Position numbers: made by a program. From a virus, in the UHGV virus genome UHGV-0153540: 18,580 nucleotides of DNA. One strand, written 5' to 3'. Of the stretch, positions 12,001 to 14,194 are shown one piece after another (the first letter of the stretch is position 1; each line of letters opens with the position of its first letter).

Positions 12001-14194
12001 AACGCCGAGATGCCGTATTGCGCATAGCTCATACAATCAATTTCGCCTTCGCAAAGCACAACCGCCCTCACGCCAGCGTCCAGAGCCTGCCATCCGAACA
12101 GGCAAGGTTCGCAATCACCTTCTGCCATAATGACTTTCTTCCCGTCCGGGCGCTCAGTGCTGATTCGCTTGACCTGCAACAACTCACCATCGCGTTTGTA
12201 CGGAATCACCAGAGCATCCAGTTCCCGCTCTCCATTCCACACCTTGCCGCTAACAACCTCGTAGCGCTTTACGATTTCTGGCGATATGCCACGCGATTGC
12301 AGGTACTCAAGATGGGATTCTGTTCTGGTAACGTAGCGGGCGATTTTCTTGCGATCAGGTCTGGAGAATTTCTTCTCACGTCTGGCATCGAAATGGTGAT
12401 CGTCATCCTTGATACCGAGAAATGCTTTCGCTTCCTGCATAGCCTGATGCAGGTTAATTCCACGACATGCCATCCACAAATCAAGCATGTCACCGCCGTC
12501 TCCCTCAGCGAAATCAGCCCATTTTTTCTTGCCGCTAAGGTTGACCTTAAGGCTGTTTCCCTTGTCACCGTTGACGTTACCGGCAACCCACTCATGCCCC
12601 TCTTTCTTGCCGTTTGGCAACAGGTGTGGAGCCACCCTGTCAACCTGCGCCCAAAGCAGGTAGCTAAGTTCACTTGGAGTCATGATTCCCTCAGATTGAG
12701 ATTTTTAAACCAGAAATCGACAAACGAAATACTTAACCAGCCGTGGTTATAACCAGCGACCAGTAACGATTTGATTTTTGATTTCATGGTTCACCTGTCG
12801 AAAAACACGTAGCCAGTTTTCGATACGGTGATTGCGGATGATGGTTTGGATTGTGGTTGAATAGTTTCTGGCTTCTCGTCGTTCCAGCGCTGACCGTTCA
12901 GGTAGCTCGATGGTAACAACCTGTCGAATCCGAACTGCTTACCATTCCTGCATGCGATGTCTTCTGCCAGCATCGTGGCAAACTCGCTTGCCGTACCCCT
13001 GGTAGTTTTACGCCATTCCCTGAACTGTGTTCTGAATGCTGAAGCTGCGTTTTTCTTCCCGGCTTTCCGCATGCCTGCACACCAGAATATTTCCTCGAAT
13101 GCCTTGTCGGTTTCTTCGTGACGGTCAGGAGTTTTTTCACACTCTGTTCGGACATGTTCGAACATAATGTTTTTAGGTTCATTGACTGGTTCAAAAGAGT
13201 GATAGGTTCTGGGGGCAGCTCCTGCCCCACCCCCCCGGGCAGCTCCTGCCCCACCCCCCCGGGCAGCTCCTGCCCCACCCCGGGCAGCTCCTGCCCCACC
13301 TGATTCTGGCTGGATTTGTTGTGCATTATCCAGCGTCAGATAAAAAACGTTTGACTGGTTAAGCTCTCCTTTTCTTCTGAATTCCCTTTTCAAAAGCCCC
13401 ATCTCTTCCAGTGCCCTAATGTGACTTTTTACTGTCGATCTGCTCACCTCACACTGGTCAGCGACATGTTGATATGAAGGCCAGCATTCGCCATTATCAT
13501 TGGCGTTATCGGCAAGTTTAATCAGAACCAGTTTTCTCAGTGGGTTGCCAACCTTTATATTCATGGCCTTAGCCATAAGATTCATGCTCATTTTGACTTC
13601 TCCGAAGTTTTGTACCTGTTAAGTATTTCTCTCAGTGGCACAGCTATTGCTGGATTAACCCCCTGATAAAACTGGTCACGTAGCACATCTTTTCGGTGAT
13701 TAACGCGTTTATTTTCCTGCGTTTTTCGCATATAATTACCTCGCTGGATGTTGTTAAAATTCCATCTGGATTTGTTCAGAACGCTCGGTCTTGCACACCG
13801 GGCGTTTTTTATTGGTGAGTCCATCAAGCGCATACTTAAAAGCCCTGCTAATCGGACTGATGTCTGATGCCATTCCGAAAGCACACAAGACCGAAGCAAT
13901 AAATCTCCAGTCCGTTCTGCTTATCTTCGATTCATGACAGCCAATCATCTTTGCCAGACCGCGCTGGGTAATCGCTGACAGGTTGATGAGTAAATCTGTT
14001 TCTGCGCGATCAACGTCGCGCTGTGATAGTTTGCTGTAACTTGTTCTTTCCATTTCTTAAGATTTCCAATAGTGAATAGTTAGTTGACTGGTATGCGTGG
14101 AAACGCATATGGCCTGAGTTGGTCAGATATCTTGGGGCTCGCTTTTCAGCGACGTAGGACGAATGTCCGTTGTTACAAAGAGCGGGGTTACTTA

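What the first reader, a model, noticed from the sequence alone, without database searches (positions are those of the whole stretch)
13731..13813. oop-like antisense RNA terminating inside cII
A plus-strand stem-loop plus T-run sits inside the 3' part of the minus-strand cII gene, with a consensus TATAAT about 45-50 nt upstream. This matches the lambda oop arrangement, in which an antisense RNA directs RNase III cleavage of cII mRNA. Its conservation despite a diverged cII N-terminus and a different replication module is notable.
Basis: partly seen in the sequence, partly recalled or inferred. Interest (0 to 1): 0.4.

Follow-up and report, generated by a model that had tools for sequence, protein, structure and literature searches.

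The report
Lambda-type oop antisense RNA gene
This is the prophage's own copy of oop, the long-known short antisense RNA of lambda-like phages that overlaps the end of the cII gene and lowers CII to favour lytic growth; it is real but ordinary.

Summary
On the + strand there is a consensus TATAAT (13731-13736). An 8-9 bp G+C-rich hairpin follows (13781-13805) and runs into T6 (13805-10). All of this lies antisense to the last 19 codons of a Pfam-confirmed cII gene (13754-14053, minus strand). The 3' two-thirds is almost identical to lambda oop. The hairpin loop is the phage 21 variant, and GenBank record AJ237660 annotates that stretch as "oopRNA". The predicted RNA is about 68 nt (13744-13811).

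All 27 cII loci examined carry an antisense hairpin plus T-run at the same place; they come from phages and from prophages of Pantoea, Pectobacterium, Erwinia, Edwardsiella and others. The stem covaries: 4 of 8 pairs show compensatory changes, 93.8% of cells are paired, and slid controls give 34-50%. A mid-stem U·G pair can form only on the oop strand. A covariance model built without the window, and without any lambda-type sequence, finds this site alone (42.9 bits, E 2e-6).

The literature already describes oop in lambda, 434, 21, P22, BTP1 and Stx phages, and already treats this region as a module junction. Verdict: interpretation supported, already known, low interest. Expression and the effect on CII are inferred, not shown. 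The 5' third differs from lambda's, and the -35 is weak.

The parts
13708..13713 (+). Candidate -35 of pO (TTTATT, 3 of 6, 17-bp spacer). Weak; lambda has TTGAGT.
   Evidence: Not called by the promoter scan.
13731..13736 (+). -10 hexamer of pO (TATAAT). Base 13731 is also the A of the ATG of the 47-aa ORF on the other strand.
   Evidence: A CATAAT or TATAAT at the equivalent place is the top-scoring -10 and overlaps the next gene's start codon in 21 of 27 cII loci; in four more (phiEt88, Pecto_polon, Dewey, Pecto_odor) it lies beside or near the start codon or is a lower-scoring candidate.
13744..13811 (+). Predicted oop RNA, about 68 nt. The 5' end is inferred (7 nt after the -10) and the 3' end is inferred from the U-run.
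   Evidence: The same rule reproduces lambda's known 5' end (GTTGAT...). It gives about 62 nt for BTP1; P22 oop is 63 nt by RNA-seq in PMC13397905. Model R1 hits 13746-13812.
13745..13780 (+). Variable 5' body. Two short predicted hairpins (13745-13764 and 13765-13780) stand in for lambda's single long stem-loop I.
   Evidence: alignment.
13781..13810 (+). tO intrinsic terminator: hairpin 13781-13805 running into T6 at 13805-13810 (T13805 closes the outermost A-U pair). The loop CTTGCAC is the phage 21 type.
   Evidence: Covariation.
13754..14053 (-). cII gene, the antisense target. 58 nt (19 codons plus the stop) are complementary to the predicted RNA.
13588..13731 (-). 47-aa ORF of the orf48 family between cII and the O-like gene. 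Its Shine-Dalgarno (GAGG) and ATG carry the pO -10 on the other strand, and its stop overlaps the ATG of the O-like gene.
   Evidence: phrog_1913 E 4.7e-22. PMC3349717 describes orf48 between oop and gene 18 in P22.

Best explanation
The feature is the pO-oop-tO unit of a lambdoid E. coli prophage, an ortholog of lambda and phage 21 oop. Host sigma-70 RNA polymerase starts about 7 nt after the TATAAT at 13731-13736. It transcribes the + strand for about 68 nt and stops at the hairpin and U-run at 13781-13810. The RNA is fully complementary to the last 55 coding nucleotides of cII, its stop codon, and about 10 nt of the spacer beyond. Pairing with the pR-derived cII mRNA makes a 58-bp or longer duplex, which is an RNase III substrate. 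The cII message is cut and degraded, less CII is made, and the phage is pushed towards lytic growth. Convergent transcription from pO may in addition damp pR transcription entering the replication genes, as reported for lambda. Shown here: homology, position, the terminator structure and its evolutionary conservation on the oop strand. Inferred from lambda and P22 experiments: promoter activity, the transcript itself, RNase III cleavage and the phenotype.
For: 1. Window 13760-13818 is identical to lambda oop except in the loop. It is 95.9% identical over 73 nt to phage 21, where the stretch is annotated oopRNA. HK633 and HK629 records carry similar annotations.
2. The target is a bona fide cII (Pfam 5.7e-34).
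3. The terminator scan finds the site, and the fold has z = -3.27.
4. All 27 cII loci from phages and GTDB genomes keep an antisense hairpin plus T-run 33-54 nt inside the cII 3' end, with at least 12 different stem sequences.
5. Covariation over 10 distinct sequences: 93.8% of cells paired, 4 of 8 pairs with changes on both sides, covariation score 0.497 against 0.224 +/- 0.049 (0 of 500 shuffles reach it). Slid controls give 34-50% paired.
6. Mid-stem pair 12-28 is U.G in 7 of 10 sequences, which would be an A.C mismatch on the cII-sense strand. The T-run exists only on the antisense strand. The selected structure is therefore on the oop strand. The antisense hairpin is the more stable one in 13 of 17 sequences.
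7. The compensatory changes fall on non-synonymous codon positions of CII: residue pairs R/R, S/D, A/A, C/H, T/V and P/G. Protein constraint alone does not explain the hairpin.
8. Covariance model R1 was built from 14 sequences that exclude the window and every lambda-type 3' half. It hits 13746-13812 (+) at 42.9 bits, E 2e-6; the next hit scores 12.9 bits.
9. Transcripts of homologous units have been seen: lambda (77 nt; Krinke and Wulff, cited in PMC5869508), BTP1 (PMC7067206) and P22 (63 nt, PMC13397905). Reviews list OOP for lambda and Stx phages (PMC12197685, PMC5488031).
Against: There are no expression data for this prophage or for this 5' variant. The -35 is weak (TTTATT, 3 of 6) and there is no extended -10. 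In lambda, a 45-bp pO fragment containing both hexamers was non-functional and 94 bp reaching into gene O were needed (PMC5869508). That upstream DNA is replaced here by an unrelated small ORF. The first roughly 20 nt of the RNA do not align with lambda. The conserved GATTGATCCAGT motif of Hayes' 33-bp block (PMC3349717) is absent, and lambda's long stem-loop I is replaced by two short, weakly predicted hairpins. Part of the conservation, and part of the R1 score, reflects shared coding sequence for the CII tail.
Confidence: 0.88

Rival explanations
1. Silent relic. The sequence is conserved only because it encodes the CII C-terminal tail and serves as a recombination linker between modules. 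In this mosaic the promoter is dead and no RNA of consequence is made.
For: The -35 is weak. Lambda pO needs upstream O-gene DNA that is absent here (PMC5869508). oop and cII are dispensable for lambda growth (same paper). The region is a known module border.
Against: The -10 is a perfect TATAAT, better than lambda's CATAAT. The stem covaries through non-synonymous changes and uses a U.G pair that works only on the antisense strand, which coding constraint cannot explain. P22 and BTP1 units have equally unrelated upstream DNA (orf48 type) and -35 hexamers such as TGGTCA, yet they are transcribed.
Confidence: 0.07
2. The promoter matters more than the RNA. pO acts mainly by convergent-transcription interference with pR transcription that runs into the replication module and origin, and the antisense effect on cII is secondary.
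For: In lambda, a pO -10 mutation raises pR read-through and impairs replication, while the oop RNA level does not affect plasmid copy number (PMC3985674). Here pO also faces pR transcription, just upstream of a replication module with iterons at 13213-13300.
Against: It does not explain why a precisely placed, covarying terminator is kept inside cII in all 27 loci. The replication module here is unrelated to lambda O/P. This rival is compatible with the best explanation rather than exclusive of it.
Confidence: 0.25
3. The hairpin works on the sense strand, as a structure in the cII mRNA (a 3' stabiliser, a processing site or a pause site) rather than as the terminator of an antisense RNA.
For: Any hairpin is also present, in complementary form, in the cII mRNA. 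In 4 of 17 sequences the sense version is predicted to be the more stable. At the loop-closing position 5 of 10 sequences have C.A, which would be G.U on the sense strand.
Against: The mid-stem U.G in 7 of 10 sequences becomes A.C on the sense strand. The antisense hairpin is more stable in 13 of 17. The U-run follows the hairpin only on the antisense strand in all 27 loci. A conserved -10 sits at the right distance upstream on that strand. RNAs of the predicted size and strand have been sequenced in P22 and BTP1.
Confidence: 0.03

Closest known systems
Bacteriophage lambda OOP RNA (pO-oop-tO; 77 nt; Krinke and Wulff 1987 and 1990, as cited in PMC5869508 and PMC3985674)
   Same: Antisense to the 3' end of cII. 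The 5' end lies in the spacer before the next gene. The -10 overlaps that gene's start codon and the Shine-Dalgarno lies just before +1. The 3' part is near-identical (TCCATCTGGATTTGTTCAGAACGCTCGG...CCGGGCGTTTTTTATTGGTGAG), with the same terminator stem and U6.
   Different: About 68 nt predicted instead of 77. Only about 10 nt lie outside cII, against 22 in lambda. The first roughly 20 nt are unrelated and the long stem-loop I is missing. The loop is 7 nt (CTTGCAC) instead of the 4 nt left unpaired by the fold (lambda has the hexamer TTGCCG between the shared 7-bp stems), which adds one codon to cII. The -10 is TATAAT rather than CATAAT, and the -35 is TTTATT rather than TTGAGT. The next gene is a 47-aa ORF, not O. 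No CTGT-N8-ACAG LexA-type box lies near pO.
Phage 21 oopRNA (misc_RNA in GenBank AJ237660)
   Same: Identical terminator including the TCTTGCACA loop region. cII proteins are 90% identical.
   Different: Phage 21 has the lambda-type 5' part, promoter and O gene. The window has the 5' part and promoter found in Min27, 24B, TL-2011a and CUS-3 type phages.
P22 oop and OOP-BTP1 (antisense to P22 c1 / BTP1 c2; detected by RNA-seq, PMC13397905 and PMC7067206)
   Same: Same position and architecture (5' hairpin plus terminator). A small orf48-type gene follows cII, so pO is embedded in that gene's start region. Size is about 63 nt.
   Different: The terminator stem sequence and CII tail are entirely different, and the 5' end carries the conserved GATTGATCCAG motif that the window lacks.

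Membership tests
lambdoid oop RNA (pO-oop-tO unit) | Encoded antisense to cII, overlapping its 3' end and starting in the spacer before the next gene | tested here: met
   cII is 13754-14053 (-). The predicted RNA is 13744-13811 (+), with a 58-nt overlap.
lambdoid oop RNA (pO-oop-tO unit) | Sequence homology to experimentally defined oop (lambda, 21) | tested here: met
   The 3' roughly 59 nt are identical to lambda apart from the loop. 95.9% over 73 nt to the annotated phage 21 oopRNA. The 5' roughly 20 nt are not homologous to lambda but are shared with Stx2-phage variants.
lambdoid oop RNA (pO-oop-tO unit) | Intrinsic terminator tO (G+C-rich hairpin plus U-run) on the antisense strand inside cII | tested here: met
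   Conserved in 27 of 27 loci. Covariation and a strand-specific U.G pair.
lambdoid oop RNA (pO-oop-tO unit) | Sigma-70 promoter pO whose -10 overlaps the translation start of the gene after cII | tested here: inconclusive
   The -10 is a perfect TATAAT overlapping the ATG of the 47-aa ORF. It is the top-scoring -10 and overlaps the start codon in 21 of 27 loci. The -35 is only 3 of 6, and lambda pO needs extended upstream DNA. Activity cannot be judged from sequence.
lambdoid oop RNA (pO-oop-tO unit) | Short transcript of about 60-80 nt actually made | not testable with these tools
   The predicted 68 nt lies within the 57-79 nt predicted for the canonical-promoter loci. Lambda is 77 nt and P22 is 63 nt by experiment.
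lambdoid oop RNA (pO-oop-tO unit) | RNase III-dependent cleavage of cII mRNA and reduced CII | not testable with these tools
   Only the precondition is met: perfect 58-bp complementarity.
lambdoid oop RNA (pO-oop-tO unit) | Match to a family covariance model | tested here: met
   Rfam 15 has no oop family. There was no gathering-score hit at this site and only sub-threshold hits to unrelated families. My own model R1, built without the window or any lambda-type sequence, gives 42.9 bits, E 2e-6, as a unique hit.
Phage_CII (PF05269), the target gene | Full-length match above the Pfam gathering score | tested here: met
   116.7 bits against a cut-off of 21.3, residues 1-93.

The most novel reading that the evidence does not exclude
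oop-tO is not a lambda peculiarity. It is an old, structure-constrained antisense RNA family attached to cII genes across Enterobacterales prophages (Pantoea, Mixta, Rosenbergiella, Pectobacterium, Erwinia, Edwardsiella, Winslowiella and others), and it has no Rfam family. Its terminator dictates coupled amino-acid substitutions in the CII C-terminal tail. The residue after the K-K motif and a residue 6-8 positions later change together as R/R, S/D, A/A, C/H, T/V and P/G, and each pair is exactly complementary at codon positions 1-2. The window's copy would then be a distinct 5' variant: no canonical stem-loop I, a consensus -10, and no LexA-type box. Its level and regulation could differ from lambda's.
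Probability: 0.55. Interest if true: 0.3.

Novelty: already known. Interest (0 to 1): 0.12.

Why it matters
It matters little as a discovery. oop has been known for about 50 years. The identical terminator variant is annotated in phage 21. Reviews already note oop-like sequences in Stx phages, and a 2012 paper compared the region across about 21 lambdoid phages.

The practical value is for annotation. Of the record annotations inspected or listed here, only phage 21 AJ237660 and the HK633 and HK629 records mark oop. PGAP does not annotate it (nor the 47-aa ORF that carries its promoter) in the near-identical CE10 prophage, and Rfam has no model for it, so it goes unseen in thousands of E. coli prophages.

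Two by-products may be worth a short note or an Rfam submission. One is the covariation evidence across distant cII genes. The other is the finding that an antisense terminator imposes coupled residue changes on the CII tail, the part of CII implicated in its activity and turnover.

Tried and rejected
1. Rfam at gathering score found only the cIII thermoregulator, elsewhere in the window. At E up to 10 over 13600-13900 it gave only sub-threshold hits: GlmZ 19.8 bits against a cut-off of 60, STnc310, and a cyanobacterial sRNA. All were driven by the terminator, and I rejected them as chance.
2. The search for related loci with the cII protein in viral contigs returned 80 loci of 94-100% identity. 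They were useless for covariation.
3. A 7-protein cII alignment was too diverse for pattern search. A 5-protein alignment worked, but 12 of the 27 genome hits were actinobacterial false positives covering only residues 26-51, and I discarded them.
4. In the MAFFT alignment of all 17 terminators, the long-stem variants (Mixta, MAG_gamma, Winslowiella, Pseudescherichia, Atlantibacter, Pectobacterium) were out of register. I therefore ran formal pair counts only on the 10 sequences with the same geometry.
5. RNAalifold on full-length candidates recovered only the terminator helix. There is no conserved 5' helix, because the 5' hairpins differ in register between lineages.
6. A fuzzy oop-terminator match at window position about 123 was a chance hit with no hairpin or context.
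7. A search for a LexA box near pO found none within 13700-13760.
8. I considered and rejected the idea that the hairpin is a sense-strand element (see rivals).

Full report
**Context**

The window is a lambdoid E. coli prophage with its immunity region inverted relative to the lambda map.
- The stretch 12700-15300 is 99.1-99.5% identical to prophages in strains CE10, WP9-S17-ESBL-11 and others.
- cI is at 14493-15206 (+) and cro at 14192-14392 (-). Both are lambda-type (Pfam Cro, Peptidase_S24 plus HTH_3).
- cII is at 13754-14053 (-), with Phage_CII E 5.7e-34. It is 90% identical to phage 21 CII but only 40% to lambda CII, and that similarity is concentrated in the last 20 residues.
- Downstream on the minus strand lie a 47-aa ORF (13588-13731), an HTH_36 initiator (12791-13591) and a Toprim/DnaB-type primase-helicase (10803-12683). 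This is the Min27/24B-type replication module.

**Observation**

- TATAAT is at 13731-13736.
- The stem is CGCTCGGT / ACCGGGCG at 13782-13789 / 13797-13804, and the loop is 13790-13796.
- T6 is at 13805-13810.
- The terminator scan reports the site as one of two in 1.1 kb, against 0.8 +/- 0.8 in shuffles.
- The 70-nt stretch folds at -21.8 kcal/mol, z = -3.27. Lambda oop gives z = -3.86.
- The promoter scan does not call the promoter, because the -35 (TTTATT, 13708-13713) matches only 3 of 6.

**Identity**

- Aligned to lambda, window 13760-13818 is identical to lambda oop and its 3' flank except in the hairpin loop: lambda has TTGCCG and the window has TCTTGCACA.
- The window's loop is the phage 21 variant. 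GenBank AJ237660 annotates the homologous 81 nt as misc_RNA 'oopRNA' and marks a 'border lambda immunity' inside it. The HK633 and HK629 records carry similar notes.
- Rfam 15 has no oop family.
- A 14-phage comparison shows a mosaic: two loop types, at least four unrelated 5' segments, and a -10 that is always CATAAT or (CA)TATAAT.
- The window combines the 5' segment and promoter of TL-2011a/EH0787-type Stx2 phages with the lambda/21-type middle and the 21-type loop.

**Is the RNA structure selected, or is this only coding conservation?**

I collected distant cII genes by tblastn in phage records (loci) and by a profile-guided scan of GTDB genomes (15 true cII loci from Pantoea, Mixta, Rosenbergiella, Pectobacterium, Shimwellia, Winslowiella, Pseudescherichia, Atlantibacter, Edwardsiella and MAGs).
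- All 27 loci examined have a hairpin followed by a T-run on the antisense strand, 33-54 nt (mostly 48) inside the cII 3' end. There are at least a dozen different stem sequences.
- On the 10 distinct sequences with the same stem geometry, 93.8% of cells are paired and 4 of 8 pairs have compensatory double changes. The covariation score is 0.497 against 0.224 +/- 0.049 in shuffles (0 of 500 reach it). Sliding the 3' arm by 1-3 columns drops pairing to 34-50% with essentially no compensatory pairs.
- The mid-stem pair is U·G in 7 of 10 sequences. That would be an A·C mismatch in the cII mRNA, and the U-run exists only on the antisense strand. The selected structure therefore belongs to the oop strand. 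The antisense hairpin is the more stable one in 13 of 17 sequences.
- The compensatory changes sit at first and second codon positions. The residue after the K-K motif and a residue 6-8 positions later change together as R/R (CG/CG), S/D (TC/GA), A/A (GC/GC), C/H (TG/CA), T/V (AC/GT) and P/G (CC/GG). The antisense terminator shapes the CII tail, not the other way round.

**Independent membership test**

I built covariance model R1 from 14 candidate oop sequences. The set excluded the window, its close relatives, and every sequence with a lambda-type 3' half. Searched over the whole window with filters off, it gives a single significant hit at 13746-13812 (+): 42.9 bits, E 2e-6. The next best hit scores 12.9 bits, E 0.77. 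Part of that score reflects shared coding sequence, so it proves homology of the locus rather than function.

**Promoter and transcript ends**

- In 21 of 27 loci the best -10 is CATAAT or TATAAT placed 23-38 nt before the antisense stop codon, and it overlaps the ATG of whatever gene follows cII. That gene may be O, an orf48-type small ORF or another gene. In four more loci (phiEt88, Pecto_polon, Dewey, Pecto_odor) such a hexamer lies beside or near the start codon or is a lower-scoring candidate.
- On the sense strand this is the block G(A/G)(G/A)GTAATTATG, that is, Shine-Dalgarno plus start codon. The -10 therefore travels with the junction.
- Taking +1 as 7 nt after the -10 reproduces lambda's known 5' end. 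It also predicts about 62 nt for BTP1, close to the 63-nt P22 oop read out by RNA-seq (PMC13397905).
- For the window this gives +1 near C13744 and an RNA of about 68 nt ending near 13811. That RNA is complementary to 55 coding nt of cII, its stop codon and about 10 nt of spacer. It stops just short of the Shine-Dalgarno of the 47-aa ORF, the same geometry as oop relative to O in lambda.
- The 5' body differs. Lambda's long stem-loop I is replaced by two short predicted hairpins. The conserved GATTGATCCAGT of Hayes' 33-bp block (PMC3349717) is absent.
- No LexA-type box lies near pO. Such a site is said to exist in lambda pO (PMC5869508).

**Mechanism**

By homology with lambda, the RNA pairs with the 3' end of cII mRNA and RNase III cuts the duplex. 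CII falls and lytic growth is favoured (Krinke and Wulff 1987, 1990; Krinke et al. 1991, as cited in PMC5869508, PMC7067206 and PMC3985674). Convergent pO transcription may also damp pR transcription entering the replication region (PMC3985674). Homology, placement, terminator structure and its conservation are shown here. Promoter activity, the transcript, the cleavage and the phenotype are inferred. The main caveats are the weak -35 and the report that lambda pO needs 94 bp of upstream DNA (PMC5869508), which this prophage does not share. Against that, P22/BTP1-type units with equally unrelated upstream DNA are transcribed.

**What is known, and verdict**

- OOP is listed for 'lambda and Stx phages' (PMC12197685).
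- OOP-BTP1 and P22 oop have been detected by transcriptomics.
- Hayes et al. [quoted passage not shown]

The finding is therefore a correct recognition of an already known element in an unstudied prophage. The 'notable' conservation across modules is the textbook behaviour of this junction. Interest is low (0.12). The only mildly new material is the covariation and coupled-residue evidence across distant Enterobacterales cII genes, and the absence of an Rfam family.

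Noticed in passing
window 13588-13731 (-): A 47-aa ORF (MRKTQENKRVNHRKDVLRDQFYQGVNPAIAVPLREILNRYKTSEKSK) lies between cII and the O-like gene. It has a good Shine-Dalgarno (GAGG), and its stop overlaps the next ATG (ATGA). It belongs to phrog_1913, the same family as HK022 Orf48 (E 4.7e-22); that family's 'tail protein' label looks wrong. It is annotated as hypothetical in phiXuzhou21 and SI5 but not by PGAP in E. coli CE10 or in Min27. Function unknown.
   Followed up: partly
window 13213-13300: A 24-bp tandem repeat of 3.8 copies (GGGCAGCTCCTGCCCCACCCCCCC, 92% matches) lies inside the HTH_36 initiator gene and is translated as GGAGAAR repeats. It probably represents the origin iterons, by analogy with ori-lambda inside gene O.
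   Followed up: partly
window 18408-18466 (+): A full-length Rfam hit to the lambda cIII thermoregulator element (RF01804, 88.5 bits, E 8.8e-21). A lambda-type cIII start region is therefore present.
   Followed up: no
window 15293-16797 (+): Two genes sit directly downstream of cI, in the position of lambda rexA-rexB. One is a DUF6932 protein (192 aa) that matches the PADLOC candidate defence model PDC-M63A (E 2.2e-10). The other is a 309-aa protein (phrog_18731) of unknown function whose start overlaps the end of the first gene. This may be a prophage-encoded anti-phage system.
   Followed up: partly
window 15732-15747 (+): A perfect CTGT-N8-ACAG palindrome (CTGTATATTGGTACAG), resembling a LexA/SOS box, lies inside the DUF6932 gene about 120 nt before the start of the 309-aa gene. 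It is the only zero-mismatch match in the window. With one mismatch allowed, 9 matches are found against 6.3 expected.
   Followed up: no
window 14031-14044 (+): TTGCTGTAACTTGT (TTGC-N6-TTGT) lies within the first codons of cII, on the strand that reads towards cI. This is the expected place for the CII-binding repeats of a pRE-type promoter, as annotated in the HK633, VT2-Sakai and epsilon34 records.
   Followed up: no
L099-L113, L094-L098, L127 (cII 3' ends): Across distant cII genes, the residue after the K-K motif and a residue 6-8 positions downstream co-vary as R/R, S/D, A/A, C/H, T/V and P/G, exactly as needed to keep the antisense tO stem. Rfam 15 has no OOP family, although the element is widespread and covarying.
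   Followed up: yes
window 4760-4816 (-): A terminator-like hairpin plus T-run (GCCTCG...CGGGGCTTTTT) was picked up as the weak second hit of the oop model (12.9 bits, E 0.77). It is most likely just an ordinary intrinsic terminator.
   Followed up: no
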